Assembly: GCA_963765865.1 (NCBI GenBank)
Contig: CAVXYE010000007.1
Location: 277,923 to 341,922 of the forward strand
Source of the DNA: an uncultured Actinomycetes bacterium
Lineage (GTDB): Bacteria > Actinomycetota > UBA4738 > HRBIN12
Reading direction: 5' to 3'
DNA: 64,000 bases
A program made the position numbers and the translations under genes. The notes under the pieces are model-generated. The model saw nothing but the letters and a program-made list of their open reading frames with translations, was not told where the DNA came from and did no database searches. Positions within the stretch are counted from its first letter, which is position 1; every line of letters begins with the position of its first letter. Positions 30,413 to 53,346 of this stretch are shown here, one piece after another.

Positions 30413-32074
30413 ATGTCGGAACGCAAGGTCGGGTCCGTCACCTACCAGGAGGTCGGTGAGGACTACTTCAAGCAGCGCGGCCTCCGGCGTCACGCCGGCG
30501 TGGTGTCGCTGTGGGCGCTCGGGGTCGGCGCCGTCATCTCCGGCGAGTACTACGGCTGGAACTTCGGCCTCAGCACCGGTGGTTTCGGGGGCCTGCTCCT
30601 CGCCGGCGTCGTGATGGCCGTCATGTATTACGGCCTCGTCTACTCGATCGCCGAGATGTCGCCCGCCCTGCCCCACACCGGCGGCGCCTACTCGTTCGCG
30701 CGTTCGGCGATGGGACCGTGGGGCGGATTCCTCACCGGCTTGGCCGAGAACATGGAGTACGTGATCACACCCGCGGTCGTCGCAGGGGCGATGGCCCTGT
30801 TGATGCAGACGATCGTCACGGGCCTGTTCGACGTCGGTGGGACCTTCGTTGACGGGAAGCTCACGGACATCGCGTGGTGGAACAGCCTGCCGGTGTGGAT
30901 GGCCGTGTTCTACGTCATCTTCGTGTGGATCAACATCGTCGGGATCGAAGCCACGATGCGATTCACCGTCACGATCACCGTGCTCTCGATCGCGGTGCTC
31001 GTCTTCTTCTTCCTCGCGACGATCTTCTCCGGCAAGTTCGACTCGAGCTTCTGGACGAACATCCCGAAGGATTGGGACGGAGAGTCCGCGTTGCTCGCCG
31101 GGGGCGGTGGACCATTCCTGCCGTTCGGCATCGCCGGGATCTTCAAGGCGCTTCCGTTCGCGATCTGGTTCTTCCTCGCCATCGAGGAGGTACCGCTCGC
31201 GGCCGAGGAGTCGATGGATCCCCGGCGCGACGTCCCGAAGGGGTCGGTGCTGGCGATGCACACCTTGTTGATCGCCGCCATCCTGACCCTGTTCCTCAAC
31301 ACCGGTCTGCCGGAGGGGGCCGGCTTCTACGGCTCGTCCGCGTTCCCGCTCCTGGACGGGTTCACGGCGATCTTCGGAACGGGAAAGGTGACCTACCTCC
31401 TCGGGTTGCTGTTCATGATCGGGTTGATCGCGAGCTTCTTCACGATCATCTTCGCCTATGGTCGGAACACGTTCTCCCTGTCGCGGGCCGGCTACTTCCC
31501 GAAGTTCTTGTCGGTGACGCACGGGGAGCGGAAGACCCCGCACGTCGCCCTGATCGCAGGCGCCATCGTCGGGTACGCGGTCGCGGTACTCGTCTACATC
31601 CTCCAAGAGAAGGCGCTGGGCGCGAAGATCGTCGCGGCCTTGCTGAACATGGCCGTCTTCGCCGCGGTGATCTCGTACATCTTCCAGATGACGTCGTTCG
31701 TGGTCCTCCGGAGGAAGCTGCCGAACATCGAGCGACCGTATCGGAGTCGTTGGGGGATCCCCGGGGCGGTCATCGCGGGGGCCTTGGCCGCGACCGCCCT
31801 GGTCGCGATCTTCTTGAACGACGCGTATCGACCCGGCGTCTATGGGGTCGCGATCTACTACGTCCTCGGGGTCTTGTACTTCGCGATCGCGGGACGGAAC
31901 CGCCTCGTGCTTTCACCGGAGGAGGAGTTCGCGCTCACGCAGGGTTCACGCGGCATCCCGGGCCAGGAGGGCTACGTGACCACGGCCGCCGAACAGGAGG
32001 CGATCCTCGGTGGTGGTACGGCGAGCGCACCCCCGCCCACGTCACCTCCACCGATGTCACCGCCGTCCGAGTAG
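30413..32074 (+). CDS. APC superfamily amino acid/amine permease
   Basis: ORF 30053..32074, trimmed to the ATG at 30413 (SD GAGAGGAGGGG). 12 TM helices. C-terminal Pro-rich tail. Confidence 0.85.
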   Translation: MSERKVGSVTYQEVGEDYFKQRGLRRHAGVVSLWALGVGAVISGEYYGWNFGLSTGGFGGLLLAGVVMAVMYYGLVYSIAEMSPALPHTGGAYSFARSAMGPWGGFLTGLAENMEYVITPAVVAGAMALLMQTIVTGLFDVGGTFVDGKLTDIAWWNSLPVWMAVFYVIFVWINIVGIEATMRFTVTITVLSIAVLVFFFLATIFSGKFDSSFWTNIPKDWDGESALLAGGGGPFLPFGIAGIFKALPFAIWFFLAIEEVPLAAEESMDPRRDVPKGSVLAMHTLLIAAILTLFLNTGLPEGAGFYGSSAFPLLDGFTAIFGTGKVTYLLGLLFMIGLIASFFTIIFAYGRNTFSLSRAGYFPKFLSVTHGERKTPHVALIAGAIVGYAVAVLVYILQEKALGAKIVAALLNMAVFAAVISYIFQMTSFVVLRRKLPNIERPYRSRWGIPGAVIAGALAATALVAIFLNDAYRPGVYGVAIYYVLGVLYFAIAGRNRLVLSPEEEFALTQGSRGIPGQEGYVTTAAEQEAILGGGTASAPPPTSPPPMSPPSE

Positions 32075-32142
32075 TCCCGACCCATCGCGGGGCGGCGGGC
32101 GATCCGCCCGCCGCCCCGCGACCGTGACGGCGAGGAGGCGAG

Positions 32143-33525
32143 ATGCAGCGGCAGGGGATGCTCACCATCGAGGAGCTCCAGGAGCTCGCCCGGAACAACC
32201 GGATCGACACCGTCCTCTGCATGTTCACCGACCTCCAGGGCCGGTACATGGGCAAGCGGGTGCTCCCGGACTTCTTCATCGAGGAGATCTTGGGCGCGGA
32301 AGGCCTGCACGCCTGTCTGTACCTGCTGGCGATCGACATGGAGATGGAGCCGCTCCCCGGGTACCGGTACGCCAGCTGGGAGACCGGCTACGGCGACTTC
32401 CGGATGATCCCGGATCTCACGACCCTCCGCTGGTGCCCGTGGATCGACAAGACCGCGATGGTGCTCTGCGACATCGCCGACGAGGACACGAGCGAGCCGG
32501 TCGCCGTCGCTCCTCGCCAGATCCTGAAGGACCAGATCGCGAAGGCCGCCGCCCAGGGGTATCAGGTCAAGACCGGGTCGGAGCTCGAGTTCTACCTCTT
32601 CAAGGACTCGTTCGACGATCTGGCGGAGCGCGCCTACCGAGATCCACGGCCGAGCTCCCCGTACATCATGGACTACCACATGCTGCAGACCACGAAAGAC
32701 GAGTGGTTCATCCGCCAGGTCCGCAACCACATGCGCGGTGCCGGTGTCCCGATCGAATTCTCCAAGGGGGAGTTCGGCAAGGGCCAGCACGAGATCAACA
32801 TCACCTACTCGGACGCGCTGTCGAACGCCGACCATCACGCGATCTACAAGCACGGTGCGAAGGAGATCGCCGCGCTCAGCGGCGTGGCGCTCACGTTCAT
32901 GGCGAAGTGGACGATGGCCGAGGCCGGTTCCTCGTGCCACCTCCATTCCAGCGTGTGGGACGTGGACGGTTCGGAGTCGCTCATGTGGGGCGGCGACACG
33001 CCGCCCCACATGAGCGACACCTTCCGGTGGTACCTGGGCGGCCTGATGACCACCGCGCGCGAGATGGCCTGGATGTACGCGCCCTTCGTCAACTCCTACA
33101 AGCGCTACCAGCTGGGATCGTGGGCACCGACCGCGATCGTGTGGAGCCGCGACAACCGCACGTGCGGGTTCCGCACGGTCGGCGAGCACACGGGGTTCCG
33201 CGTGGAATGCCGGTTGCCGGGCGCCGACGCGAACCCGTACCTCGCCTTCGCCGCCACGATCGCGAGCGGGATGTGGGGGATCCGCAACAAGGTGGAACCA
33301 CCGGAGATGTTCCACGGCAACGCCTACGAGGCCAAGGACGTCCCCCGTGTCCCGACCTCGTTGCACGAGGCGGTCGAGACGTTCCGCGGATCGACGGTCG
33401 CACGCGAGGCGTTCGGGGACTTCGTGTTCGAGCACCTGTTGAACACGGCCGAACAGGAACAGATCATCTTCGACAACACGTGCGTGACCGACTGGGAGCT
33501 GGCCCGGTACTTCGAGCGCGGGTGA
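32143..33525 (+). CDS. Glutamine synthetase family protein (GlnA3/PuuA-like gamma-glutamyl-amine ligase)
   Basis: 460 aa. GS catalytic-domain motifs (KGEFGKGQHEIN, SGMWGIRNK). Confidence 0.85.
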   Translation: MQRQGMLTIEELQELARNNRIDTVLCMFTDLQGRYMGKRVLPDFFIEEILGAEGLHACLYLLAIDMEMEPLPGYRYASWETGYGDFRMIPDLTTLRWCPWIDKTAMVLCDIADEDTSEPVAVAPRQILKDQIAKAAAQGYQVKTGSELEFYLFKDSFDDLAERAYRDPRPSSPYIMDYHMLQTTKDEWFIRQVRNHMRGAGVPIEFSKGEFGKGQHEINITYSDALSNADHHAIYKHGAKEIAALSGVALTFMAKWTMAEAGSSCHLHSSVWDVDGSESLMWGGDTPPHMSDTFRWYLGGLMTTAREMAWMYAPFVNSYKRYQLGSWAPTAIVWSRDNRTCGFRTVGEHTGFRVECRLPGADANPYLAFAATIASGMWGIRNKVEPPEMFHGNAYEAKDVPRVPTSLHEAVETFRGSTVAREAFGDFVFEHLLNTAEQEQIIFDNTCVTDWELARYFERG

Positions 33526-33530
33526 GCGCG

Positions 33531-34575
33531 ATGGCAGACCTGAACGTCATCCCGTACCGACCTGAGCGGAGCGACTACGCGTGGACGTTCGGTGGCGCCG
33601 ATCCGGTGATGACGGTGAAGCCCGGGGACGTGCTCGAGCTCTGGACGGATGACTGCTTCACGGGACTCGTCAGCACCGTCGACGACCTGGCGTCGGAGAA
33701 GATCACGTTCCCGTTCCTGAACCCGCAGACGGGACCGTTCTTCGTCGAGGGGGCGGAGCCCGGCGACACGCTGGCGTTGCATCTCGTCTCCCTCGAACCC
33801 GCGAGGGACTGGGGCGTCTCGACGACCTTCCCGCTGTTCGGCGCGCTCACCTCGACCCTCGCGACGGTGACGCTGCAGGATCCGCTCGAGGAGCTCGTCT
33901 GGATCTACGAGGTGGACGCGACGCGGCGCACCGTCCGCTACGAAGCCCGGCGCAGCGACCACACCGTCGAGCTCCCGCTCGAGCCGATGCACGGCACGGT
34001 GGGCGTGGCGCCGGCCAACCTCGAGGCGCGCTCGGCACTGGTTCCCGGCCCGCACGGCGGCAACATGGACACGCCGGAGATGCGCGCGGGCACCACGTGT
34101 TACCTCGGCGTCAACGTTCCGGGCGCGCTGTTCTCGATCGGAGACGGCCATTACCGCCAGGGTGAGGGCGAGACGTGTGGCGTGGCCGTCGAAGGAGCGA
34201 TGGAGACCACGTTGATCGTCGATCTGATCAAGGGCCGCCAGACGCCCTGGCCGCGCTTGGAGGACGAGACCTACATCATGTCGACGGGTTCCGCGCGCCC
34301 GCTCGAGGATGCGTTCCGGATCGCCCACGGCGACCTGGTCCTGTGGCTCGTCGAGGAGTCCGGCCTGGACAAGCTCGACGCCTACCAGTTGGTGACGCAG
34401 ATCTCGGAGAGCCCCGTCGCGAACGTCTGCGACCCGAACTACACGTTCGTCGCGAAGGCCAGGAAGGAGTACCTCCCGGGTCGCGAGGTATACGGGCAGA
34501 CGCACGGCGGCTCGTGGAGATGGCAGTCGGCGTACCGGCGAGGCCCGAGGGAGCGAACCCGCTCCCTCATCCTGA
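33531..34575 (+). CDS. Acetamidase/formamidase (FmdA_AmdA) family amidase; no in-frame stop, 3' end uncertain
   Basis: MADLNVIPYRPE... is confidently family-like for about 316 aa. After about 34480 the frame becomes R-rich with rare codons and runs without a stop into the permease ATG at 34710. The only stop in the region (TGA at 34573) is in another frame. Confidence 0.55.
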
Positions 34576-34709
34576 CGGAGTACGTCCGAGGATTTCGCCT
34601 CGAGCGACGGCTGGACAGGCCCGCCCTCCGGTGCAACGATTCGCGCGACGTCAGCTGGTGGGGAACGCCCGCTCGACGGGCGCCTCCACCATTCGGGAGG
34701 GGGTGCCGC

Positions 34710-36259
34710 ATGGCAAGCCGAACCGACGAACAGGCGATGATCTCGGAGAAGGTCGCGCCGGTCCTCGTGGCGAGGACGCTCGGGCCGTTCGACCTCGTCG
34801 TGATCTTCGTCGCGATCGTCCTGTTCATCAACAACGCGGCGGGGGTGCAGGCCGCGGGACCGTCGATCTTCGTCTTCTGGATCCTCGCGTTCGCGACGTT
34901 CCTGATCACCGGCGGGTTCATCACCGCGCAGCTCGGCCGGATGTTCCCCGAGGAGGGATCCCTCTACGTGTGGACCCACAAGGTCCTGGGCCCGTTCTGG
35001 GGGTTCTTCGCCGGGTTCGTCGCCTGGTGGCCCGGCCCGATCTCGCTCGTGTTCATCGGGATCCTCGTGGCCAACTTCCTCCAATCGTTCGCGTCGTTCT
35101 TCACGTGCAACGGCGCGCCGTGCGAGATCCTCACGAAGAACTGGCAACTCGGGCTCGTGGTGCTCGCCGTCCTCTGGTTCAGCGCTTCGATGTCGTACCT
35201 GAAGATGCGCGTGACGCAGAACTACGTGAACGTACAGTTCTGGGCGTACGTCTCAGTGATCTTCTTGATCGGCCTCTCCGGCGTGATCTGGCTCCTGAAG
35301 GGGAACCCGTCCTCGACCTCGTTCGCCACGGGGTGGAACCCGTTCCAGGGCGAGCACGCTCGCGCTCGGACTTCCCGCGAACCTGACGTTCTTCTCCTTC
35401 GCGATCCTCGCCCTCCTCGGGATCGAGACGCCCCTGAACATGGGGGTCGAGGTCACGGGCGGCGAGAAGGCGATCAGGACGTTCCTGTTCTGGGGCAGCA
35501 TCATCGTGATGGCCGCCTACCTCTGGGCTACCTGGGGCAACATGGTCGTGATCGAGGCCGGAGGGGCGAACGGCACGACGGGCGGCGCGGAGACCGTCGG
35601 GCTCGCGATCGGCAAGTGGGCGGGAGCGCATCGTCTCGATCGTCATGGCGTGGGTGTTCCTGACCGTGGCGGTCGTCTACAACTACTCCTTCGGCCGACT
35701 GCTGTTCGTGTCCGGGCTGGAGAAGCGCCTCCCCCACCAGTTCGGCAAGGTCAACCGGAACAAGGTACCGGCGAACGCGATCACCTTGCAGACGGCGATC
35801 TCCACGATCCTCGCGATCTTCGTGTTCTTCATCGTGGGACGCGGAGAGGCAGACCCGTATAAGGCCTTCTACGTCCTCTACGCGGGCGTGACGATCGTGT
35901 GGTGCATCTCGACCGCGTTGTTGTTCCTCGACATCTTCTTCGCGAAGCGAGCCGAGCCGGAGCGGTTCGAGCAGGAGCGCCGGATCCCCGTCGGATGGCT
36001 CTTCGTCTGCGGCGCGGTCGGGTTCGTGGTCAACGTCCTGGCGGTGATGTTCATCTTCGTTGGGTCGTGGTACCCGACGGGATTCCCGGTCCTCAAGGTG
36101 TGGAACGAGTGGATGCTCGCGTTCACGGCCGTCTCCGTGATCTCGGGGATCGCGATCTACCTGATCTCGCAGCGCACGCGTCGCGGGAAGACCGACGTGG
36201 AGCTCCTCGGCGAGGGTGCGGCGACCCAGGAGATCGCGGAGGACACGTCCATGGCGTGA
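34710..36259 (+). pseudogene. APC superfamily permease, disrupted by two +1 frameshifts (or sequencing indels) at GGG runs near 35349 and 35623
   Basis: The protein continues across three frames: ...GWNPFQG | ASTLALGLPANLTFFSFAILALLGIETP...AIGKWA | ERIVSIVMAWVFLTV... Confidence 0.7.
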
Positions 36260-36287
36260 CCCGCTTCGACGCACGGAGGGCAGTGAT

Positions 36288-36314
36288 GGGGCCCCGCCCG
36301 AAGGGCGGGGCCCC
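36288..36314. terminator. GC-rich hairpin (12-bp perfect stem, GAA loop) between convergent genes; probable bidirectional terminator without a U-tract
   Basis: GGGGCCCCGCCC-GAA-GGGCGGGGCCCC. Confidence 0.5.
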
Positions 36315-36334
36315 ATCGCATCCGGGAACGTCCC

Positions 36335-37507
36335 TCAGCCGCTCAGGCCGTGCAGGCCTCGACAGCTGTCGCCGAGGATGAGCTCTCCGAGGCGGTGGGC
36401 CTCGTCGACCGCGACGTAGTCGCGGTCGACGAGGCGCCCGAGGACCCGTTGGAGCGCGGCCCGAGCCATCAGGGCCGCGACCCAGAAGCCCTCGGGCTCG
36501 CCCGCCTCATCCGATCCGTACATGATCTTCGCGGCGGGGACGGAGCCCACGATGAGGTCGAGCGCGGGCTCGACCTGTCCCCACCCCCACGGGATGAGCT
36601 CGGAGAGCTCGAGGTAGACGTTCGGCAGGACCGAGGCGATGAACGCCCCCTCCTCGACCCAGGGGAACCCGCTGTGCACCAGCACGACCGGTTGGTGCTG
36701 GACGTCGACCAGCAACGGGAACAACCCCTTGGGCGACGCGTGCTCCAGGTCGATGTCGGGGTCCCCGCCGCCGCAGTGGAAATGGAACGCTCGGTCGTGC
36801 GCCTTGGCGACCGCGAGCGTTCGCCGGATCAGGAAGTCCCTGACCGGTTTCGCGTGCGCCCGCGTCTCGCCCCAGCCGTCGGCGCGCCAGCGCGTGAAGG
36901 CCTCCGCCGCCTCCGACGGCGAGGGATCGCCGACGTCCAGGCCGGTCCGGTACGCGACGATCGACTTGTACGCGACGCAGTTCGGGTCGGAGGCGGCCTC
37001 GGTCGCATCGGCCTCCACGCCGGCGACCAGGTCATCGAACGTCCCTTCGCGTCTCGCGAGGATCCACGGCTCCAGGCGCGCGACGCGGTGCACCGGCACG
37101 CCGATCGTCCCGGCGAACTCCGGCGCGGGGATCGGCGGCTGCGGGTAGCCCTCATCGGCGAGGACCGCCACCACACCGGCCGCATCGAGGAGGCTCTTCG
37201 TGTACGCCACGGGGTCGGCGCGCAACGCGACCTCGCGCGCGGCCGCGACCGCCTCGCGCGTGGGCTCGCACTCGAGGTGACGCGCGAGCCAACGCACGAT
37301 CGTGATCCCCATCACCGTCGAGTCCGTCAGCCGGTCCGCGGTCGGCCACAGCTCCGGATCCAGCCGCGACGACGAGGAGAACGACTCGCCGAGGAAGGTC
37401 GCTCGGGTGTCGAAGCCTTCGGACCCCTTCTCGAGCAAGTCCTCCATGCGATAGGGATGCGTATGCGCGTCGACGATCTGGAGACCCGACAGGTCGACGT
37501 CAGCCAT
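36335..37507 (-). CDS. Amidohydrolase-2 (PF04909-like) metal-dependent TIM-barrel hydrolase
   Basis: 390 aa. N-terminal IVDAHTH metal-binding motif. Confidence 0.75.
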   Translation of the reverse strand: MADVDLSGLQIVDAHTHPYRMEDLLEKGSEGFDTRATFLGESFSSSSRLDPELWPTADRLTDSTVMGITIVRWLARHLECEPTREAVAAAREVALRADPVAYTKSLLDAAGVVAVLADEGYPQPPIPAPEFAGTIGVPVHRVARLEPWILARREGTFDDLVAGVEADATEAASDPNCVAYKSIVAYRTGLDVGDPSPSEAAEAFTRWRADGWGETRAHAKPVRDFLIRRTLAVAKAHDRAFHFHCGGGDPDIDLEHASPKGLFPLLVDVQHQPVVLVHSGFPWVEEGAFIASVLPNVYLELSELIPWGWGQVEPALDLIVGSVPAAKIMYGSDEAGEPEGFWVAALMARAALQRVLGRLVDRDYVAVDEAHRLGELILGDSCRGLHGLSG

Positions 37508-37519
37508 CGAGCCCTCCGC

Positions 37520-38920
37520 TCAATACCGCCATCGATGCGCCCGAACCATGTCGGCCGGATCCATCGCAGCGAACAGGGCGTTCTCGCCGCGTCGGGTCGC
37601 GAGGAACGCGTCGAACAAGACGTCTCCCATCGCGCTTCGGATGACGGTCGATCGTTCGAGCTCGCGGATCGCGGCGCCGAGCGAGGACGGGAGCTGCCGG
37701 ATCCCCAGCGAGCGTCGTCGCGCCGCGGGGATCGCCGCCGGATCGTCGAGGATCGACTCGGGGAGCGCCAGCTCGCGTTCCACGCCGTCGATGCCGGCGG
37801 CGACGATCGCGCCGAGGGCGAGGTACGGGTTGGCCGCGGGATCCATCGACTTCAGCTCGAGGTTCGCCGCGTCCGGGCGGCTCCCGACCATCCCGGTCAC
37901 GAACCGCAGCGCGGCCTCCCGGTTCTCCCGTCCCCAGACGGCCCACGGACCGCTCCATCGGTGTGGCTGGAGCCGCTGGTAGCTCGCGACCGACGGAGCG
38001 GTGATCGCCGTGAGCGCGGGCAGCGATCCCAAGACGCCGGCCGTGAAGGCCTCGGCCTCGCGGGTCATGCCGTCCGGTCCACGGCCGCCGTTGAAGATGT
38101 TGCGACCGCGCCGGTTCCACAGGCTGAGGTGCAGGTGCGCTCCGTTGCCGACGAGCCCCGGGAACACGACCGGGGCGAACGAGGCGACGAACCCGTGGCT
38201 CCGGGCGACGGCGCGGATCGTCTGCCGCAGGACCAGGTTCGTATCGGCGACCGCGATCCCGGTGCCGTGCGGGATCGACACCTCGAGCTGTCCGGTCGAG
38301 TACTCCGGGTGGAACTGCATCACGCCCGTCCCTTGCTCCTCGAGGGCGCGGATCAACGCCGTCGCGAACGGCTCGACCTCGGCGAGGGCGATCGCGCTGT
38401 AGGCCGGCCCCGGGTGTGCGGGCTGCGGATCCTCCTGCGATCCATCCGTGGTCCGATGGCCGAGGAAGAACTCCATCTCGTAGGCGCCGCGCAGCTCGAG
38501 CCCGAAGCCCGCCAGCCGCTCGAGCATCCTCCTCGCGAACGTCCGGGTGCAGGCCGCGTACGGCTCTCCTTCTTGATCGAGCTGGTCGACCGGCGCGATC
38601 GCCCAGCCGGGGCTCGCCGCGAGCGGCGTCGTTGCCGCGGGGTCGGGCATCAGGCGCGTGTCGCCAGCCGGCCCGCCGAGGTCGGGCGACGACGTGATCG
38701 AATCATCGACGAGGAAGACGGAGAACACGGGCGACAGTCCGATCCCGAACCGGACGGCCTCCTCGAAGCGGTGCAGCGGGACGCACTTCACGAGCGTCAC
38801 CCCGGCGTTGTCGACCATCGCGAGCGCCACCATCTCGACGCCGGCGGCGGCGAGTCGCCGCGCCGCCTTCGCGGCAGCGGCGCCCGCGCCGCCACCCGCC
38901 GCTCTCGAACCGCCAGCCAT
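37520..38920 (-). CDS. Glutamine synthetase family protein (gamma-glutamyl ligase paralogue)
   Basis: ORF 37520..39943, trimmed to the ATG at 38920, 5 nt after the TAA of the upstream GS gene. Confidence 0.8.
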   Translation of the reverse strand: MAGGSRAAGGGAGAAAAKAARRLAAAGVEMVALAMVDNAGVTLVKCVPLHRFEEAVRFGIGLSPVFSVFLVDDSITSSPDLGGPAGDTRLMPDPAATTPLAASPGWAIAPVDQLDQEGEPYAACTRTFARRMLERLAGFGLELRGAYEMEFFLGHRTTDGSQEDPQPAHPGPAYSAIALAEVEPFATALIRALEEQGTGVMQFHPEYSTGQLEVSIPHGTGIAVADTNLVLRQTIRAVARSHGFVASFAPVVFPGLVGNGAHLHLSLWNRRGRNIFNGGRGPDGMTREAEAFTAGVLGSLPALTAITAPSVASYQRLQPHRWSGPWAVWGRENREAALRFVTGMVGSRPDAANLELKSMDPAANPYLALGAIVAAGIDGVERELALPESILDDPAAIPAARRRSLGIRQLPSSLGAAIRELERSTVIRSAMGDVLFDAFLATRRGENALFAAMDPADMVRAHRWRY

Positions 38921-38925
38921 CGGGC

Positions 38926-40254
38926 TTAGAACAGCTCCAGGTACTCGGCGCGCTCCCAGTCCGTGACCGAGTCCGTGAACCGGGAAAGCTCGTAGCGCCG
39001 CATGGCCGAGTACACGGTCACGAACTCTTCGCCGAAGAACTCCTTCGTCGCCGGCTCCTGTTCGAGCGCTTCCAGCGACTCCTCGAGCGCGATCGGGAGC
39101 TTCTCGAACGATGGATCCTCCTCGGCCGGGACGCCCGGCGTGGCCGGCTCGGGTGCGGGCAACCCCTCCTCGATGCCGCGCAGCCCCGCCTGGATCAACG
39201 CCGCCCCGACGAGGTAGGGGTTCGACAGCGCCGACGGCGCGCGGTACTCGATGTGCTTGTGCTCCGGGCCGCCGCCTTTCACCCGGACGAGCGCGGAGCG
39301 ATCCTCGAGGCCCCACGAGATGTTCGACGGACTGAACGTATGCGGCCGGCGCCGCCGGAGACAGTTCACGGTCGGAGCGATCACCGCGTCGAACGCGCGC
39401 GCGTACTTCAGGATCCCGGCGATGAACGAGCGACACGTGTCGGTCATCCCGTACGGGTCGTCGGCGTCGCCGAACGCGTTCTTCCCCGAGTCCGCGGAGA
39501 GCAGCGACAGGTGGGTGTGACACCCGCTCCCCGAATGATCCGCCCACGGTTTCGTCATGAACGTCGCGAGGTAGCCGTCCTGCTTCGCGATCTCCTTGAC
39601 CCCGTTCTTGAACGTGAAGGCGTCGTCCGGACCCGCGAGGCCGCGGCCGGGCGCGAAGTTGATCTCCCACTGCGACCCGGCGTACTCGCAGTTCGCGGTG
39701 ATGATGTCCACCCCGACCTTCGGCATCTCCTCGATGATCCGGCGGATCGTCGGGACGTAGTCGTTCCGGACGGTGTTGAAGATGTGATAGCCGTCGAAGA
39801 GCGGCTCGTGGGTGTCCCCCGTCAGGAGATAGAACTCGAACTCCGAGCCCATCAGCGTGTCGAACCCCATCGCACGAGCCTTCTCGAGCGCACGACGGAA
39901 GACGGAGCGAGGGGTCGCCGCCAGCGGCGTCCCGTCGTACCACTGCGCGTCACAGATGAACCTCGCCGTTCGGTCCATCCACGGGATCACCGCGGCCGAG
40001 TCCGGGTCGGGGAACAGCAACTGGTCGCCGTACCCCTTCTTGTCGTGGTACAGGGTGCCCGGGACGACGTCCGATCTCGTGTCGAGGACGCTCGCTCCCC
40101 CGTACATGTTGAGCCCGCGCTCGGCGTAGTCGAACGCGTGGGCGATCGGGATCGTCTTCGATCGCGAGATGCCGTGCATGTCGGGGAGCTCGAAGCGGAC
40201 GAATCCGATCCCGTCCGACTGCCAGCCCCCGAGGATCTCCCTGACGTCGCTCAT
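38926..40254 (-). CDS. Glutamine synthetase family protein (gamma-glutamyl ligase paralogue)
   Basis: ATG at 40254 with SD GGAAGGAGccggcATG. GS beta-grasp and catalytic domains. Confidence 0.85.
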   Translation of the reverse strand: MSDVREILGGWQSDGIGFVRFELPDMHGISRSKTIPIAHAFDYAERGLNMYGGASVLDTRSDVVPGTLYHDKKGYGDQLLFPDPDSAAVIPWMDRTARFICDAQWYDGTPLAATPRSVFRRALEKARAMGFDTLMGSEFEFYLLTGDTHEPLFDGYHIFNTVRNDYVPTIRRIIEEMPKVGVDIITANCEYAGSQWEINFAPGRGLAGPDDAFTFKNGVKEIAKQDGYLATFMTKPWADHSGSGCHTHLSLLSADSGKNAFGDADDPYGMTDTCRSFIAGILKYARAFDAVIAPTVNCLRRRRPHTFSPSNISWGLEDRSALVRVKGGGPEHKHIEYRAPSALSNPYLVGAALIQAGLRGIEEGLPAPEPATPGVPAEEDPSFEKLPIALEESLEALEQEPATKEFFGEEFVTVYSAMRRYELSRFTDSVTDWERAEYLELF

Positions 40255-40321
40255 GCCGGCTCCTTCCGTCCCGCGCAACGGCTCCCGGTGTGGTGGGTAT
40301 ACCTTGACGGCCCATTGGTCC

Positions 40322-40336
40322 GCAACGGGGCGTTGC
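40322..40336. promoter_or_regulatory. Perfect inverted repeat GCAACG-GGG-CGTTGC in the divergent GS/aminotransferase promoter region
   Basis: Lies next to an 8-bp palindrome GGTATACC (40295-40302) and a TTGACG -35-like hexamer. Confidence 0.3.
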
Positions 40337-40397
40337 CCTACGCTAGGCGGAAGGCGGGACCGTGCGGGCAGGCACGGCCCGCGTGAAGGGGAGCCGG

Positions 40398-41774
40398 ATG
40401 GCCGACGCGTCGATCCAGAGCGAGCGAACGCACGTCTTCCCGCTCGAGCTCGGACGGGCCATGCCGGTCATCGCCCGCGGCGACGGCGTCTGGATCGAGG
40501 ACACCGCCGGTCGTCGGTACCTGGACGCGATGAGCGGCGGTTCGATGGCGGCGACGCTCGGCCACGGCCGCCGCGACATCATCGAGGCCGCCCGCGTCCA
40601 GGCCGGGAAGCTCGCCTACGCGCACAACGAACGGCTCACGAACCCGCTCCAGGAACGGCTGGCGAACGAGCTGATCGCGGTCGCTCCGGAAGGGTTCGGT
40701 CGCGTGAAGTTCACGGTCGCCGGAGCGGACGCCATCGAGATGGCGATCCAGCTCGCCCGGAGCTATCACGTCGAGCGAGGCGAGGGCGATCGCTGGCAGG
40801 TGATCTCGCCGGCGCAGGCGTATCACGGCCCCACGATGGAGACCCTCGCCCTCACGGGACGACCCGGGCTGCACGGCCCGTTCGGCCCCTACCTGCCCCA
40901 ACACCTCCATATCCCGCCGAGCACGTGGCGGTTCGACCCGAGCGGCGAAGCGGCGCTCGAGGCTCTCGATCGCGCCCTCGAGCAAGCAGGTCCGGGGAAC
41001 GTCTCCGCGTTCTTCTGCGAGGCGATCAGCGCCGCCGCCCTGCCCGCCTACACCCCGCCACGCCGCTTCTGGGAGGGCCTCGCCGAGCGCCGCGAGCGCT
41101 TCGGCTTCCTCGTGTGCTTCGACGAGGTCGTGACCGGCGTCGGCCGCACGGGGAACTGGTTCGCCGGCGCGGCGACCGCGTGCGTCCCCGACATCATCGC
41201 GACCGCGAAGGGGCTCGGAGCCGGCTACGCGGCGATCGGGGCGGTGCTCGTCCGCGAGCACGTCTACGACGCCGTCGCCGGGGGATCGCGACGCTTCACC
41301 CCCGGGCACACCTGGGACGGGGCCCCGCTCGCAGCGGCGGTCGGTCTCGCGGTGTTGGAGGCGCTGCGGTCGGAGCGGCTCGTGGAACGGGTCCGGGACC
41401 GGGGACCGAGCCTGCGGGATGAGCTCGAACGCGCGCTGGCCGGCATCCCCTTGGTTCGCGAGGTGCGTGGCCACGGCTACCTGCTCGGGGTGGAGTACGT
41501 CGATCCGCGCGACAACACCTCGTTCCTGCCGCGCGAGCTACGGGTCGCCGGACGGATCGACGACGTCGCGTTCGAGCGGGGCCTGATCACCCTGTCCACG
41601 CAACCGACGCGCGACGGCTTCGCGGGGGATCAGTCGTTGTTCGCCCCGGCGTTCACGGCGACGGACGAGGAGCTCGCGGAGATGGTTTCCCGGTTCGCCG
41701 AGGTGGTCGGTCACGTCGCGGAGGACGTCGAGCGAGAGCTCTCGATCCTGTCCACCAGCGGAGGTCCCCGATGA
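40398..41774 (+). CDS. Class III (omega) aminotransferase, PLP-dependent
   Basis: ORF 40362..41774, trimmed to the ATG at 40398. Confidence 0.85.
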   Translation: MADASIQSERTHVFPLELGRAMPVIARGDGVWIEDTAGRRYLDAMSGGSMAATLGHGRRDIIEAARVQAGKLAYAHNERLTNPLQERLANELIAVAPEGFGRVKFTVAGADAIEMAIQLARSYHVERGEGDRWQVISPAQAYHGPTMETLALTGRPGLHGPFGPYLPQHLHIPPSTWRFDPSGEAALEALDRALEQAGPGNVSAFFCEAISAAALPAYTPPRRFWEGLAERRERFGFLVCFDEVVTGVGRTGNWFAGAATACVPDIIATAKGLGAGYAAIGAVLVREHVYDAVAGGSRRFTPGHTWDGAPLAAAVGLAVLEALRSERLVERVRDRGPSLRDELERALAGIPLVREVRGHGYLLGVEYVDPRDNTSFLPRELRVAGRIDDVAFERGLITLSTQPTRDGFAGDQSLFAPAFTATDEELAEMVSRFAEVVGHVAEDVERELSILSTSGGPR

Positions 41775-42499
41775 CCCCTCCCGATGCGACTGCCACCCCG
41801 ATGCGGGCCCTGATCCTCCAGCACGAGGAGCCCACGCCGCCGGGCCTCGTCACCGAGTGGCTCGGTGGCCACGGCGCGAGCGTCGAGACGTTCCGGATCG
41901 ACGTCCACGACCGCGAGGTGGATCCGACCCGCTACGACCTCATCGTGTCGCTGGGGTCGGAGTTCGCCGCGTTCGACGACACGAAGCCGTTCGTCCCCCG
42001 CGAGGCGAGCCTGCTGCGACGAGCGGTGGACGCGGAGGTGCCGGTGCTCGGTCTCTGCTTCGGCGGTCAGATGCTCGCGCGCGTCCTCGGCGGCGAGGTG
42101 TATCGCTCGTCCGACTCGGAGATCGGCTGGCTCCCGGTGAAGAGCACCGACCCCGAGATGGTGCCGGAAGGACCGTGGTTCCAGTGGCACTTCGACACGT
42201 TCGCGCTTCCGCCCGGAGCGACCCTGATGGCCGAGACGGACGTTGGCCCACAGGCCTTCGTGATGGGTCGGAGCCTCGGGCTGCAGTTCCATCCCGAGGT
42301 CACGACCGACATCATGACCGACTGGGTGCGCGAGTACCGCCACGAGCTCGACGCGGACGGCGTGGATCCGGACGCCCTGCTCGAGGAGACGAAGCGACGT
42401 GCCGTGGACAGCAAGCGGATGTCGTTGCGGCTCATGGACTGGTTCCTCCGCGATGTCGCGCGACTCCACCCGGGCCGTTCGCGGGCGACCCTCGGCTGA
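41771..42499 (+). CDS. Class I glutamine amidotransferase-like protein
   Basis: 242 aa. GLCFGGQ catalytic Cys and HPE motif. ATGA overlap with the upstream aminotransferase. Confidence 0.8.
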   Translation: MTPPDATATPMRALILQHEEPTPPGLVTEWLGGHGASVETFRIDVHDREVDPTRYDLIVSLGSEFAAFDDTKPFVPREASLLRRAVDAEVPVLGLCFGGQMLARVLGGEVYRSSDSEIGWLPVKSTDPEMVPEGPWFQWHFDTFALPPGATLMAETDVGPQAFVMGRSLGLQFHPEVTTDIMTDWVREYRHELDADGVDPDALLEETKRRAVDSKRMSLRLMDWFLRDVARLHPGRSRATLG

Positions 42500-42509
42500 G
42501 GAGACGACG

Positions 42510-43866
42510 ATGGAGGGGGCGGTCCGGTCGGAGGACACGAAGGTGTTCCCCCGCTTCCTCGACCTGCCGTACCCGAGCATCGAACGAGGCGACGGGGTCT
42601 GGCTCACCACGACCGACGGCCGGCGCATCCTCGACGCCTGCTCCGGCGGCGCCATGGTCGCGTGTCTGGGACACGGTGTCCCCGCGGTCGTCGCGGCGGC
42701 GGCCGGACAGGCCGAGGCCATCTCGTACTTCTACAACCACCATTTCACGAACGAGCCGCAGGAGCGGCTCGCCGACCGTCTGCTGGAGATCGCGGCCCCG
42801 GAGATGGCGCGGATCCGGTTCGTCTCGGGTGGCTCCGAAGCCAACGAGACGGCGCTACAGCTCGCGCGGCTCTACCACGTGGAGCGAGGCGATGCGGACC
42901 GCTGGCGGGTGATCTCCCCCGCGCAGGCCTACCACGGTTCCACGATGGGAACGCTCGCCCTGAGCGGCCGTCGCACGCTGCAGGAGCCGTACACCCCGTA
43001 CCTCGCGCACCACCTGCACCTCGAGCCATCGACGTGGCGGTTCGACCCGACCGGCGAGGCCGCGCTGCGACGACTCGACGAACTCCTCGACGAGGCCGGG
43101 CCGGAGACGATCGCGGCGTTCTTCTGCGAGCCCGTGAGCGCAGCGGCGTTGCCCGCCTACTCGCCGCCGGAAGCGTTCTGGCGCGGGCTGGACGAGCGGC
43201 GCGCGGAGCACGGCTTCTTGATCTGCTTCGACGAAGTGGTCACCGGGATGGGACGCACCGGGACGTGGCTCGCCGCTCATCAGCTGCCGATCGAGCCCGA
43301 CATCGTGACCGTCGGCAAGGGCCTCGGGGCCGGATACGCGCCACTCGGCGGGGTGTTCTGCAGGCAGGACGTGTACGACGCGATCGATCGCGGGTCGCGC
43401 GAGTTCGACCTGGGGCATACGTGGGACGGCGCCCCGGTGTCGTCCGCCGTCGGCTTGGCGGTCCTCGATCTCCTCGTCGAACGGGCACCTGGTGGAACGG
43501 GTCCACGACCGGGGACCCCGCCTGCGCGACGAGCTCGAAGCGGCGCTCGAAGGCTCCGAGATCGTCAAAGAGGTGCGGGGGCGCGGGTTCCTGCTGGGTG
43601 TGGAGCTCGTCGACCCGCGCGACGGCGAGTCGTTCCTCCCGGTCGAGCTGGACGCGGCGTCGCTCGTGGACGACGCCGCGTTCGAACGTGAGCTCCTCGT
43701 CACGTCGACCCATCCACAGGCCGACGGCTTCGCCGGCGACCAGACGCTCCTCGCTCCCGCGTACACGAGCTCGGACCACGAGCTGGGAGCGATGGTCGAC
43801 CGTTTCGCCGCCACGATCGAGGACGTGGAGGGCGCGATCAAGGACGCCTTGACGAGGACCGCATGA
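42510..43866 (+). CDS. Class III aminotransferase paralogue with an apparent +1 frameshift at a GGG run near 43483-43485
   Basis: Frame 0 reads ...AVLDLLVER then turns to R/G/P junk. Frame +1 continues as HLVERVHDRGPRLRDELEAAL..., colinear with the paralogue at 40398. Confidence 0.7.
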
Positions 43867-45152
43867 GCGCCGGCTCGGGTGAGGAGTTCGTCCTCCTCGG
43901 GATCCCCGACGTCAACGGCTCGATCCGAGGGAAGGCGCTCCGGCCGGATGCGTTCGACTCGGCCGTCAAGCACGGAACGGTGATGACGGACCTGATCCTC
44001 GGGCTCGATCCCGTGGACACGCCCATCACCGACTACGAACGCTTCGGGATCCGGACGGGGGCAGCGGACCTGATCGTTCGCCCGGACGTCGAGACACTCC
44101 GGGATCTGGCGTGGCGGCCGGGCTGGCGTGTCTGCCTGGCCACCCCCAGCTGGCCCGACGGTTCACCGTGCGACTTCGCGACGCGCGAGGTCCTCCGGCG
44201 GGTCCTCGCCGACGCGGAAGATCTGGGGTACGAGGTGATGTCCGCGATCGAGTACGAGATCCGGATCTGGGATGCCCAGGGAAGCCCGACGTCGAGCGGT
44301 ATCAGCTACAGCCTGAACGAGATCGGAGGCTACGACCGATTCCTCGACGAGCTCGTCCGCGCCGTGGAAGGGCTCGGGATCGAGCTCTCCGCGGTCCATA
44401 CCGAGGCGGGCCCGGGCCTGTTGGAGCTCAACCTCGGCGCGCGGCGAGGGCTCGCGGCTGCCGATGACGCCGCCCTCCTGAAGTTCGGGGTCAAGCGGCT
44501 GGCCGCATCGTTGGGCTTGCGCGCCAGTTTCCTGGCGAAGACCGCACCCGGAGAGGAGGGGTCGAGCGGACACGTCCACATGTCGTGGTGGCAGGGCGGA
44601 ACCAGCGCGTTCGCATCCGGCGGCCGCGATGCTGCGATCCCCGCTGTGTTCGGGTCGGCGATCGCCGGCGTCCTGGAACACCTCCCGGCAGCCTCCCTGC
44701 TGTTGAACCCGACGATCAATTCGTACAAGCGCCTCGTTCCCGGATGGTTCGCGCCGATCAACGCGACCTGGGGCTACGACAACCGTTCGTGTGCGGTGCG
44801 CGCGATCCGCTCGGACCGACCGGAGCTCTGGCGGTTCGAGTGCCGTCGGCCCGGCGCCGACGCCAACCCCTACCTGGCGCTCGCCGCGATCGGCGCGTCG
44901 GCGGCGGACGGGATCCGCAAGGGGATCGATCCGCCGGACCCCGTCGTCGGAGACGCGTACGCCAGCGAGCTCCCCGAGCTGCCGTCCTCGCTCGAGTCGG
45001 CCCTCCGGGCCTTCGAGACCGACGACGTGTTGCGGGGGTCGCTGGGGAAGGACTTCGGCGACTACTACGCGACGTCTCGGGGATGGGAGCTCAAGGCCTG
45101 GCGCGAGACGGTCACGGACTGGGAGCGCGCGCGGTACGACCGATCCGTCTAG
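43863..45152 (+). CDS. Glutamine synthetase family protein (fourth paralogue)
   Basis: 429 aa GS catalytic domain. ATGA overlap with the aminotransferase. Confidence 0.85.
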   Translation: MSAGSGEEFVLLGIPDVNGSIRGKALRPDAFDSAVKHGTVMTDLILGLDPVDTPITDYERFGIRTGAADLIVRPDVETLRDLAWRPGWRVCLATPSWPDGSPCDFATREVLRRVLADAEDLGYEVMSAIEYEIRIWDAQGSPTSSGISYSLNEIGGYDRFLDELVRAVEGLGIELSAVHTEAGPGLLELNLGARRGLAAADDAALLKFGVKRLAASLGLRASFLAKTAPGEEGSSGHVHMSWWQGGTSAFASGGRDAAIPAVFGSAIAGVLEHLPAASLLLNPTINSYKRLVPGWFAPINATWGYDNRSCAVRAIRSDRPELWRFECRRPGADANPYLALAAIGASAADGIRKGIDPPDPVVGDAYASELPELPSSLESALRAFETDDVLRGSLGKDFGDYYATSRGWELKAWRETVTDWERARYDRSV

Positions 45153-51328: not shown

Positions 51329-52047
51329 ATGAAGCCGATCCTGCTCGTTCGTTGCGACGCGTTCGAGACCTACGGCGTCGCCCCCTCCGCCCTCGGAGCG
51401 GCGGGAGCGACGACGCGGATCTGGGACGCCACGGACCCCGCCGAGGAACGACCGAACCTCGGAGACGTGTCCGGCGTCGTGCTGTTCGGCAGCACCTCGA
51501 ACGTCGAACAGGCGGACGAGCGACCGTTCATCAAAGAGGTCGCCGATCTGACGCACGAGGCCGTCGAACGCGGCGTGCCGTTCCTCGGCCTGTGCTTCGG
51601 GGCGCAGGTGCTGGCGTGGGCGCTCGGCGCGGACGTGATCAAGGCGCCGGTCCGCGAGCTCGGCTTCGAGCCGATCCGAACGCTCGCTGCGGCGGCCGAT
51701 GACCCGGTGCTCAGCCACTACGCGGACGGCGACCCGGTGTTCCACTGGCACGAGGACACGTTCGAGCTCCCCCGGACGCGACGCTCCTGGCCACCGGTGA
51801 GGCGGTCCCGAATCAGGCCTACCGGGTCGGCGAGACGGCGTGGGCGACCCAGTTCCACGCAGAGGTCGACGCCGTGGAAGCCGAGATGTGGGTCACCGAA
51901 GCGAGCGCCCAGCAGGATCTGGAGGAGGCGTGGGGCAAGTCCCCCGCGCGGGTGCGTGAAGAGATCCGGCTCCACATGGCCGGTCACGAGCGCCGCGGCC
52001 GCGAGACGTTCCGGCGGTTCGTCGAGGTCGCGCGGGAGCGGTCATGA
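51329..52047 (+). CDS. Class I glutamine amidotransferase-like paralogue with an apparent -1 frameshift in a C5 run (51769-51773)
   Basis: Frame 1 reads MKPILLVRCD...HWHEDTFELP. The continuation ...DATLLATGEAVPNQAYRVGETAWATQFHAEVD... is in the -1 frame, colinear with the paralogue at 41771. Confidence 0.6.
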
Positions 52048-53346
52048 CCTACCGCCCGCTCGTCGCGGTCGTCGCGTACCACCTCGGGGACGATCGTGTC
52101 GCCCGCTGGCCCCACGGCGGATACGGCGTCCCCGGCCCGTACATCGAGTGCCTGCGCCGCGCCGGAGCCAGGACGGCGATCGTCTCCCCCGGCGAGGACG
52201 GCGCCCCCGAGGAGCTCCTCGAACCCTTCGATGGGCTCCTCCTCGTGGGCGGCGGCGACATCGATCCGGCCCGATACGGGGGCGATCCCCGCGACGGCCA
52301 CCTGTACGGGGTCGAGCCCGATCGCGATGAGCTGGAGATCCAGCTGCTCCAGGCGGCGGACCGTTTGCGCGTGCCGACGCTCTGCATCTGTCGCGGGATG
52401 CAGGTCATGAACGTGGCGTTCGGGGGCACGTTGCATCCCCACCTGCCCGACCTGCCCGGGATGGTCCAGCACGGCGTCCCGGTCCTCGACACGCAGACCC
52501 TCCACGACATCGGGGTCGAGCACGCGAGCCGGCTGTTCGCGACCACGAAGGTTTCCACGCTGGCGGCGTCCTCGCACCACCATCAGGGGGTCGACCGTGT
52601 CGGGGGCGGACTGCTCGTGTCCGGTCGGACGTCCGACGGCCTCGTGGAGGCGATCGAACGCGACCACGACCTGGACGCCGACTGGGAGCGGTGGATGGTC
52701 GGGGTGCAGTGGCACCCCGAGGACACGGCCAACGACGACCCCGCCCAACAGGCACTCTTCGACGGTCTCGCGCTCCTCGCGAGGGTGCGCGGCTCGAAGG
52801 CCGAGCATCACGGCGTCGGCCGGACGCGCGCGTATTCGATCGTGCAGCCGGACCCGGCCTGGCCGGAGCGTTTCGAGCAGGAAGCCGCTCGCGTCCGGGT
52901 CGCCCTCGGAGCTCAGGTCGTCCGGATCGAGCACATCGGCTCGACCTCGGTCCGGGGGCTTCCGGCCAAGCCCATCATCGACATCTCCGTCGGGCTCGCC
53001 TCGATGGAGCCCCGAGGTGCGTACGTGCCGGCGTTGCGACGGTCTGGGGTACCGAACGGTCTTGGATCCCTGCGACCCCGACCACGAGTTCGCCAGCCTC
53101 GATCTGGACGGCGAGCGGCGCTTCCACGTGCATCTCTGCCTGGCCGGGAGCCGGTTCGAACGCAGGCACCTCGCCTTCCGGGACTGGCTCCGAACGCATC
53201 CGGAGGACGCCGCCGCCTACGGGGAGCTCAAGCGAGAGCTCGCGGCAACGCATCCGAACGACGTCCATACCTACACCGAGGCGAAGACCGGGTTCATCCG
53301 ATCGATCGAAGCGCAGGCGCTCGCCGCCGCCTCCGGAGCGGTCTGA
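52044..53346 (+). CDS. PuuD-like gamma-glutamyl hydrolase (peptidase C26 / class I GATase) fused in frame to a GrpB-family domain; +1 frameshift at a GGGG run (53046-53049) inside the GrpB part
   Basis: The PuuD part (CICRGMQVMN, HHHQGVDRVGGG, WHPE) ends near residue 250. The GrpB N-terminus (YSIVQPDPAWPERF...IEHIGSTSVRGLPAKPIIDI) follows with no start codon of its own. The GrpB C-terminus (LGYRTVLDP...HVHL...) is in the +1 frame (ORF 52597..53346). Confidence 0.55.

What the first reader, a model, noticed from the sequence alone, without database searches (positions are those of the whole stretch)
33531..36259. Formamidase gene with no stop codon running in frame into an APC permease that carries two +1 frameshifts
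The FmdA/AmdA-like ORF is family-like for about 316 aa. It then degrades into rare-codon, R-rich sequence and reaches the permease ATG (34710) in the same frame, with no stop in that frame. The permease then needs two frame changes, at GGG runs near 35349 and 35623, to read a colinear APC transporter through the conserved FSFAILALLGIETP motif. This is either a decaying duplicate uptake/amidase unit or a locally error-prone assembly region.
Basis: seen in the sequence. Interest (0 to 1): 0.5.

Follow-up and report, generated by a model that had tools for sequence, protein, structure and literature searches.

The report
Assembly errors mimic broken amidase–permease genes
The "stop-less amidase fused to a twice-frameshifted permease" is almost certainly a handful of single-base consensus errors in a metagenome assembly of mixed strains; the two genes are separate and intact in close relatives, so this is ordinary.

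Summary
In the window the FmdA/AmdA-family ORF from 33531 has no in-frame stop until 35660, and the APC permease (ATG 34710) lies in three frames.

The cause is five single-base indels, and none is seen in any short-read relative:
- Permease: an extra G at 35358 and an extra G at 35628.
- Amidase tail: -1 at 34505, +1 near 34525 and +1 near 34544.

Removing the two G's restores a 515-aa permease, 97% identical to the intact one in contig L091. Three edits restore a 347-aa amidase ending at TGA 34573-34575.

Two near-identical long contigs (L001, L002) carry different singleton insertions in the same gene. Six of the eight insertions abut a strain polymorphism and carry the other allele (P about 2e-5). 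Substitutions among the three strains are mostly synonymous in the intact frame, so the gene is under purifying selection.

Split permease orthologues occur in 5 of 32 Nanopore MAGs and 0 of 48 other genomes. The window also has other broken genes (Aminotran_3 near 43482, GrpB near 53050).

Verdict: a consensus artefact of a probably long-read, mixed-strain assembly, not a decaying gene pair. Raw reads were not available, so this is inferred.

The parts
33531..34575 (+). FmdA/AmdA-family amidase gene. True extent is 347 aa plus TGA once three single-base errors in the tail are corrected.
   Evidence: Pfam PF03069, 89.6 bits against a cut-off of 27. L091 orthologue is 347 aa, ending ...GQTHGRLVEIASEYRQARGSEPAPSS*. 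The repaired window ORF is 338/347 identical to it.
34505..34544 (+). Three indels in the amidase tail: one base missing after 34505, one extra base at 34525-34527, one extra base at 34541-34544. Net +1, so the stop is missed.
   Evidence: Four-way and panel alignments. L001 and L002 carry different indels in the same 70 nt. The short-read contigs L091, L092, L007, L009, L010 and L012 are all in frame.
34573..34575 (+). Orthologous TGA stop of the amidase. It is out of frame in the window as assembled.
   Evidence: Frame +1 reads GSEPAPSS*. L091 and L002 have the same C-terminus and stop.
34576..34709 (+). Non-coding spacer. It holds a conserved promoter-like block (TGGACA 34612-17, N17, TGC-AACGAT 34632-40), a leader hairpin (34656-34691) and a Shine-Dalgarno sequence (GGGAGGGGG, 34695-34703).
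   Evidence: A spacer of about 148 nt is present in all intact loci. The block is conserved across species-level relatives. Pair counts support the helices. There is no Rfam match, and the E. coli-type promoter scan is negative.
34710..36259 (+). APC-superfamily permease gene, 515 aa once two inserted bases are removed.
   Evidence: The repaired protein matches many 505-520-aa proteins over 100% of its length; the best hit is 94% identical. It is 501/515 identical to L091. Pfam PF13520 is found on the fragments.
35358..35358 (+). Extra G, the first +1 frameshift. It is private to the window.
   Evidence: Absent from L001, L002, L091, L092, L007, L009, L010, L012 and L013. It sits on the CAC/AAG multi-base polymorphism and equals the last base of the other allele.
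35628..35628 (+). Extra G, the second +1 frameshift. It is private to the window.
   Evidence: Absent from all other haplotypes. It sits on the GCC-ATC / GCG-CTG polymorphism. L001 has a different extra base 9 nt upstream.

Best explanation
Two ordinary, separate, functional genes sit in a conserved amine-catabolism cluster of an uncultured soil Actinomycetota. One is a 347-aa amidase of the acetamidase/formamidase family. The other is a 515-aa APC-family permease with its own upstream leader. They look fused and frameshifted only because the assembled consensus carries five wrong single-base indels.

The likely mechanism (inferred) is this. The assembly collapsed reads from co-occurring strains. 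Where the strains differ by adjacent or multi-base substitutions, consensus or polishing kept bases from both alleles, or from neither. That creates +1 or -1 errors. The amidase tail, spacer and permease are 3-10 times more polymorphic than the flanks, so the errors pile up there.

Shown: the indels are private, the genes are intact in relatives, the indels co-localise with polymorphisms, purifying selection acts on the gene, and split genes associate with Nanopore MAGs.

Inferred: that the window itself is a long-read mixed-strain consensus, and that no real molecule carries these indels.
For: 1. Intact orthologues. Short-read loci L007-L010 have amidase 342 aa with a stop, a 148-nt spacer and a permease of 515 aa in identical synteny. 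L091, 96.9% nt identical to the window, has 347 aa and 515 aa.
2. Minimal repair. Deleting G35358 and G35628 gives a 515-aa ORF, 501/515 identical to L091. Three edits give a 347-aa amidase, 338/347 identical.
3. Private, non-shared lesions. All 8 frameshifting insertions in the permease are singletons absent from every short-read haplotype: window 2, L001 4, L002 2.
4. Allele signature. 6 of 8 insertions abut a polymorphic column and carry its other allele. The chance expectation is 0.0985 per event, giving P = 2e-5.
5. Indel density tracks polymorphism. The flanks have 0.5-1.5 polymorphic columns per 100 nt and 0-2.3 indels per kb. The stretch 34471-34709 has 13.4 and 37.7. The permease has 4.2 and 5.8. 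Indels lie within 3 columns of a substitution in 17/33 cases against an 8.8% background (P = 4e-10). Outside the region the figure is 6/14 against 7%.
6. Purifying selection in the intact frame. Differences by codon position are 6/1/19, 10/1/42 and 6/1/34, and synonymous:non-synonymous counts are 21:5, 41:10 and 31:8. The window's private substitutions are 4/1/13 by position, with 15 synonymous and 3 not.
7. Platform association. The permease is split across frames in 5/32 MFD Nanopore MAG loci, against 0/48 other genome representatives (p = 0.008) and 1/128 of all non-MFD loci (p = 0.0013).
8. Other broken genes in the same assemblies. In the window, Aminotran_3 is split at about 43482 by a private +C, and GrpB at about 53050. 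L001 and L002 break other genes that are intact in the window.
9. Literature. MFD assemblies are Nanopore-only, assembled with metaFlye and polished with one round of Medaka (PMC12313526). Nanopore bins below 40-fold coverage need short-read polishing (PMC9262707). Flye collapses strains that are 97.6-98.65% identical, and indels cause frameshifts (PMC8302730).
Against: - No reads were available, so the errors are not directly demonstrated.
- The window's provenance and sequencing platform are unknown. Its contig is not in the collections searched. A long-read origin is inferred from its 99.2% and 98.8% identical relatives, which are named contig_N in ENA assemblies.
- Two of the 8 insertions (L002 at 35804 and 36138) do not directly abut a polymorphism in the close panel.
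- One tail insertion (T at 34527) is shared by the window and L002. A purely random error would not be expected to be shared.
- The alignment could bias the placement of insertions towards variable columns.
Confidence: 0.9

Rival explanations
1. Real, very recent, strain-specific pseudogenes. This strain, and independently the L001 and L002 strains, inactivated the permease (and the amidase tail) by single-base insertions. This could reflect selection for loss of uptake.
For: All three near-identical long contigs have a disrupted permease, each with its own lesions. Indels are 10-fold enriched in this 1.8 kb.
Against: - The lesions are private and multiple per strain (2, 4, 2), yet substitutions on the same branches remain strongly synonymous.
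- The inserted bases match the alternative allele at the site (P = 2e-5).
- Indels outside the region show the same link to polymorphisms and break unrelated conserved genes.
- No short-read relative is disrupted among the 10 aligned in this lineage and its neighbours. Only 1 of 128 non-MFD loci is split.
Confidence: 0.07
2. An old, decaying duplicate amidase/uptake unit. The unit is a redundant copy under relaxed selection that is accumulating lesions.
For: A second APC permease (ethanolamine-permease-like, 30413-32074) lies 2.6 kb upstream, so there is some redundancy in uptake. Local polymorphism is elevated.
Against: - The two permeases are different families, not duplicates.
- The amidase-permease pair is conserved in synteny across many species and is intact there.
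- No lesion is shared by the three strains.
- Third-position bias shows constraint.
Confidence: 0.01
3. Programmed recoding or a genuine fusion. The amidase is read through into the permease and two programmed +1 frameshifts give one long protein.
For: The frame is open from 33531 to 35660.
Against: - Orthologues have a stop, a 148-nt spacer with a conserved leader and Shine-Dalgarno sequence, and an in-frame permease.
- The shift sites are not conserved, differ between strains and have no slippery motif.
- The intervening 'protein' is the non-coding spacer.
Confidence: 0.005

Closest known systems
Indel-induced frameshifted gene calls in Nanopore or metaFlye metagenome assemblies (PMC9262707; PMC8302730; MFD MAG catalogue PMC12313526)
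   Same: Single-base indels split or fuse ORFs that are intact in short-read assemblies. The effect is platform-associated: 5/32 MFD loci against 0/48 others. Several genes are affected per contig.
   Different: The classic description is homopolymer miscounting. Here most errors are not in homopolymers. They sit on strain polymorphisms, and the inserted base equals the other allele. This points to a mixed-haplotype consensus rather than basecalling of G runs.
Genuine bacterial pseudogenes (frameshifted genes under relaxed selection)
   Same: Loss of the stop codon and +1 frameshifts in a colinear gene.
   Different: No inherited lesion is shared among close strains. Substitutions stay synonymous in the intact frame. 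The lesions are absent from all short-read relatives.
Gamma-glutamylation amine-catabolism clusters (E. coli Puu pathway; Streptomyces GlnA2/GlnA3/GlnA4-type gamma-glutamyl-amine synthetases). This comparison rests on my own knowledge.
   Same: The neighbourhood holds four glutamine-synthetase-like genes, two class-III aminotransferases, a Peptidase_C26/GATase hydrolase, an aldehyde dehydrogenase, an ethanolamine-permease-like transporter and a GntR regulator.
   Different: All NCBIfam equivalog scores are far below their cut-offs. For example, GGputSyn scores 187 against 650 and FmdA 62.6 against 500. The substrates of the amidase and permease are therefore unknown, and the name 'formamidase' is not justified.

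Membership tests
Acetamidase/formamidase family (Pfam PF03069 FmdA_AmdA) | Match to the family HMM above the gathering score | tested here: met
   89.6 bits against a cut-off of 27, E = 2.5e-25.
Formamidase FmdA proper (NCBIfam NF045496 equivalog) | Score at or above the curated equivalog cut-off | tested here: not met
   62.6 bits against a cut-off of 500. It is a family member, not a demonstrated formamidase.
APC-superfamily permease (Pfam PF13520 AA_permease_2) | HMM match above the gathering score and a colinear full-length alignment to intact members | tested here: met
   The fragments score 65.1 and 33.3 bits against a cut-off of 27. The repaired 515-aa protein aligns over 100% of its length to many 505-520-aa members. 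No specific transporter equivalog is reached.
Pseudogene (decaying gene) | Frame-disrupting lesions present in the sequence | tested here: met
   This holds only at the level of the assembled consensus.
Pseudogene (decaying gene) | Relaxed selection: substitutions spread evenly over codon positions, with dN/dS near 1 | tested here: not met
   Counts by codon position are 10/1/42 and similar. Synonymous:non-synonymous is 41:10. The window's private changes are 15:3.
Pseudogene (decaying gene) | Lesions are inherited, that is shared by closest relatives, and independent of sequencing platform | tested here: not met
   All permease lesions are singletons. Split orthologues are seen only in Nanopore MAGs among the genome representatives.
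Programmed +1 frameshift or translational fusion | The shift site and the fused architecture are conserved in orthologues | tested here: not met
   Orthologues are in frame and have a stop plus a spacer.
Mixed-strain long-read consensus artefact | Indels are private to one assembly, co-localise with strain polymorphisms and carry the alternative allele | tested here: met
   (6/8 events, P = 2e-5; 17/33 within 3 columns of a substitution against an 8.8% background).
Mixed-strain long-read consensus artefact | Raw reads of any single haplotype lack the indel | not testable with these tools
   No read data are available, and the window's own record was not found.

The most novel reading that the evidence does not exclude
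The frameshifts are real. Three co-occurring strains of one soil actinobacterial species have each independently and very recently knocked out the same APC permease, and scrambled the amidase tail. That would be parallel loss of an uptake function under selection. The allele-matching insertions would then reflect a templated or recombination-associated mutational process at polymorphic sites, not a consensus error.
Probability: 0.04. Interest if true: 0.45.

Novelty: not a real feature. Interest (0 to 1): 0.06.

Why it matters
The biological finding does not stand. There is no fusion, no recoding and no decaying gene pair.

It matters in practice as a warning. Contigs of this kind carry roughly one frame-breaking error per 10 kb, and the errors concentrate in strain-variable genes. 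Such genes will be called as pseudogenes, fusions or truncated proteins by any scan that works from sequence alone.

The signature seen here could be used to flag such artefacts without reads. An indel is suspect if it is private to one assembly, sits on a polymorphism and carries the other allele.

Tried and rejected
- A k-mer (10-mer) test for 'union of alleles' across whole loci was too unspecific in this GC-rich DNA. I replaced it with column-based tests.
- Looking for the window's own record failed. It is not among the GTDB species representatives returned. Its private Amidohydro_2 protein is not on record.
- I could not confirm that ERZ25039464 and ERZ25039532 belong to the MFD project, because no supplementary tables are held.
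- The 807-aa ORF at 37520-39943 first looked like a fusion of two glutamine-synthetase genes. It is only an open frame upstream of a normal 467-aa gene, with a single Gln-synt_C domain and the same gene structure as L009 and L010.
- The GC3 frame plot was too noisy to count frameshifts window-wide. I used ORF and Pfam checks on candidate pairs instead. Most candidates were separate genes (GreA, a CDP-alcohol phosphatidyltransferase, a histidine kinase, ETF alpha, an Fe-S/CCG protein).
- Rfam found nothing, in the whole window at gathering thresholds or in the spacer at E up to 5. The E. coli-type promoter and terminator scan of the spacer found nothing. RNAalifold predicted no consensus fold for the leader on MAFFT alignments.

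Full report

Yes. Translating 33531 onwards gives an FmdA/AmdA-like protein. It reads like its relatives to about residue 325 (...KEYLPGREVYGQTH). It then continues as Arg-rich sequence through the permease ATG at 34710, with no stop in frame until 35661.

The permease is colinear in three frames:
- frame 0 from 34710 to about 35357;
- frame +1 to about 35627 (this part holds FSFAILALLGIETP);
- frame +2 to the stop at 36257-36259.

Pfam places FmdA_AmdA on the first ORF. It places AA_permease_2 profile positions 2-188 and 277-424 on the outer permease pieces.

**2. What do relatives look like?**

The neighbouring glutamine-synthetase-like protein (32143-33525) is encoded identically on two long ENA contigs. 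L001 is 795 kb and L002 is 430 kb, and both are named contig_N. They are 99.2% and 98.8% identical to the window over 21 kb. The same protein also occurs on several short contigs.

In L001 and L002 the permease is also broken, but differently: 266 + 180 aa in L001 and 383 aa in L002. Each contig also breaks other genes that are intact in the window.

The conceptually repaired permease (515 aa) matches many 505-520-aa proteins over its full length. Four short-read loci carry the best hits: two NCBI soil MAGs, a MEGAHIT contig and a JGI contig (L007-L010). They show identical synteny:
- amidase of 342 aa with a stop;
- a 148-nt spacer;
- permease of 515 aa;
- Amidohydro_2 of 390 aa;
- two GS-like genes.

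A JGI contig of the same lineage, L091, is 96.9% nt identical to window 31701-38486. It has an amidase of 347 aa (...GQTHGRLVEIASEYRQARGSEPAPSS*) and an intact 515-aa permease.

**3. Exactly what is wrong in the window?**

These points come from the alignments.
- Permease: one extra G at 35358 (GAGCAC[G]CTCGCG) and one extra G at 35628 (GGAGC[G]CATCG). Both are absent from all nine other haplotypes.
- Amidase tail: one base is missing after 34505, one is extra at 34525-27 and one is extra at 34541-44. The net shift is +1, so the orthologous TGA at 34573-34575 is out of frame.
- Deleting the two G's gives a 1548-nt ORF whose product is 501/515 identical to L091's.
- The three tail edits give a 347-aa amidase that is 338/347 identical.

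**4. Real lesions or artefact?**

Five lines of evidence point to an artefact.

(a) The lesions are private. The eight frameshifting insertions in the permease are all singletons: two in the window, four in L001 and two in L002. No short-read haplotype has any of them.

(b) The lesions sit on polymorphisms.
- Six of the eight directly abut a polymorphic column, and the inserted base is the other allele at that column. Examples are CAC|G against AAG, TGG|A against GGA, GGA|C against GGC, and GGGC|A against GGCA.
- A random insertion would do this with probability 0.0985, giving P = 2e-5 for 6 or more of 8.
- Across the 21-kb three-way alignment, indels lie within 3 columns of a substitution in 17/33 cases, against an 8.8% background (P = 4e-10). 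Outside the flagged region the figure is 6/14 against 7% (P = 2e-4).
- Indel density follows polymorphism density, as tabulated below.

| Region | Polymorphic columns per 100 nt | Indel events per kb |
|---|---|---|
| Flanking genes | 0.5-1.5 | 0-2.3 |
| 34471-34709 (amidase tail and spacer) | 13.4 | 37.7 |
| Permease | 4.2 | 5.8 |

(c) The gene is under purifying selection in the intact frame.
- Differences among the window, L001 and L002 fall on codon positions 1/2/3 as 6/1/19, 10/1/42 and 6/1/34.
- Synonymous:non-synonymous codon counts are 21:5, 41:10 and 31:8.
- The window's own private substitutions are 4/1/13 by position, with 15 synonymous and 3 not.
- A pseudogene of any age would show no such bias.

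(d) The effect is associated with the sequencing platform.
- Among 80 species-representative loci, the permease is split across frames in 5. All 5 are MFD (Microflora Danica) MAGs. That is 5/32 MFD loci against 0/48 others (p = 0.008).
- Adding the 80 metagenome loci gives 1/128 for non-MFD loci (p = 0.0013).
- MFD assemblies are Nanopore-only, assembled with metaFlye and polished with one round of Medaka (PMC12313526).
- Nanopore bins below about 40-fold coverage need short-read polishing to reach HiFi quality (PMC9262707).
- Flye collapses strains of 97.6-98.65% identity into one consensus, and indels cause frameshifts in such assemblies (PMC8302730).

(e) The window has other broken genes.
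- Aminotran_3 is split at about 43482 by a private extra C. Pfam profile positions 12-308 and 308-402 lie in two frames.
- GrpB is split at about 53050. It follows a Peptidase_C26 ORF that also lacks a stop.

**5. Mechanism**

Reads from co-occurring strains were collapsed into one consensus. Where alleles differ by adjacent or multi-base substitutions, the read-to-draft alignment can represent the difference as an insertion plus a deletion. The consensus then keeps both bases, or neither, which gives a +1 or -1 error.

The amidase tail, spacer and permease are the most strain-variable part of the locus, so errors accumulate there in all three long contigs.

This mechanism is inferred from the pattern. 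It was not observed in reads, and the platform of the window itself is not known.

**6. What the locus really is**

It is part of a conserved cluster containing:
- a GntR regulator;
- an ethanolamine-permease-like transporter (TIGR00908, 340 bits against a cut-off of 382);
- four GS-like ligases;
- an FmdA/AmdA-family amidase;
- an APC permease;
- an Amidohydro_2 protein;
- two class-III aminotransferases;
- a Peptidase_C26/GATase hydrolase;
- an aldehyde dehydrogenase.

From my own knowledge this resembles gamma-glutamylation routes for amine catabolism (Puu-like, GlnA2-4-like). All equivalog scores are far below their cut-offs. The substrates are therefore unknown, and the name 'formamidase' is not justified (62.6 bits against a cut-off of 500).

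**7. Rivals**

- Recent real inactivation in each strain (0.07). It is contradicted by the allele-matching insertions, the selection signal and the platform association. Only reads can exclude it.
- An old decaying duplicate (0.01). It is contradicted by the lack of shared lesions and by constraint.
- Programmed frameshifting or fusion (0.005). It is contradicted by the orthologues.

**8. Verdict**

The 'error-prone assembly' reading is supported, with a different error mechanism from the one proposed. The 'decaying duplicate' reading is rejected. This is not a real biological feature, and its interest is low.

**9. Side observation**

The spacer that was read as 'R-rich protein' holds a block conserved across many species. 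In order, it contains:
- TGGACA, N17, TGC-AACGAT;
- a 5' ACGTC element;
- a long G-rich/C-rich hairpin (34656-34691);
- a strong Shine-Dalgarno sequence.

With a hand-specified structure, 81% of cells pair, against 34-56% in slid registers. Some changes are compensatory: pair 16-51 is AU in 14 sequences and UA in 8, pair 27-67 is GC in 22 and AU in 5, and pair 31-63 is CG in 18 and AU in 4.

The counter-evidence is as follows:
- RNAalifold predicted nothing.
- Fold z-scores are unremarkable.
- There is no Rfam family.
- The independent evolutionary events behind the compensatory changes are few.

It is a candidate regulatory leader and no more than that.

Noticed in passing
window 34612-34709 (and upstream of the permease ATG in L009-L139): A conserved non-coding block lies upstream of the permease in many species-level relatives. 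It has a promoter-like TGGACA-N17-TGC-AACGAT, then a leader with a 5' ACGTC/ACGAC element. That element can pair inside a long G-rich/C-rich hairpin (34656-34691), either as a pseudoknot or as an alternative pairing. The hairpin's C-rich 3' arm (CCTCCACC) resembles an anti-Shine-Dalgarno sequence and lies just before GGGAGGGGG (34695-34703). A hand-specified structure gives 81% of cells paired against 34-56% in slid registers, with some compensatory pairs. There is no Rfam hit, and RNAalifold predicts nothing. It could be a translational regulatory leader or riboswitch candidate.
   Followed up: partly
window 42318-43866 (+), shift near 43482: The class-III aminotransferase is split over two frames. 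Pfam Aminotran_3 profile positions 12-308 lie in ORF 42318-43688 and positions 308-402 in ORF 43309-43863. The cause is an extra C at 43482 that L001 and L002 lack. This is another likely consensus error in the same window.
   Followed up: partly
window 51960-53390 (+), shift near 53045-53060: A complete Peptidase_C26 domain runs with no stop into a GrpB domain (profile positions 3-70 of 159) in one frame. The rest of GrpB (...LGYRTVLDPCDPDHEF...HVHLCLAGS...) continues in the +1 frame. This looks like the same 'missing stop plus frameshift' pattern as the flagged locus. It was not compared with relatives.
   Followed up: partly
L050, L063, L070, L073, L084 (permease match 5001 to about 6540): Five species-representative MFD Nanopore MAGs have the orthologous permease split across two or three frames. 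L070 and L084 each have two shifts. None of the 48 non-MFD genome representatives does. One JGI contig, L152, is also split.
   Followed up: partly
window 34471-36259 compared with the flanks (three-way alignment with L001 and L002): Synonymous strain-level diversity in the permease is 3-4 times that of the neighbouring genes (4.2 against about 1 polymorphic column per 100 nt). Many alleles are shared with a more distant lineage (the L009 type). This suggests recombination or introgression at this gene. It was not analysed further.
   Followed up: no
window 30413-45152 and L001 1-21383: One cluster holds four glutamine-synthetase-like genes (32143-33525, about 37520-38921, about 38926-40255, 43692-45152). 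It also has two class-III aminotransferases, a Peptidase_C26/GATase, an Amidohydro_2 protein, an aldehyde dehydrogenase, two APC permeases and a GntR/UTRA regulator. This is an unusually GS-rich, presumably gamma-glutamylation-based amine-catabolism island. All NCBIfam equivalog scores are below their cut-offs.
   Followed up: partly
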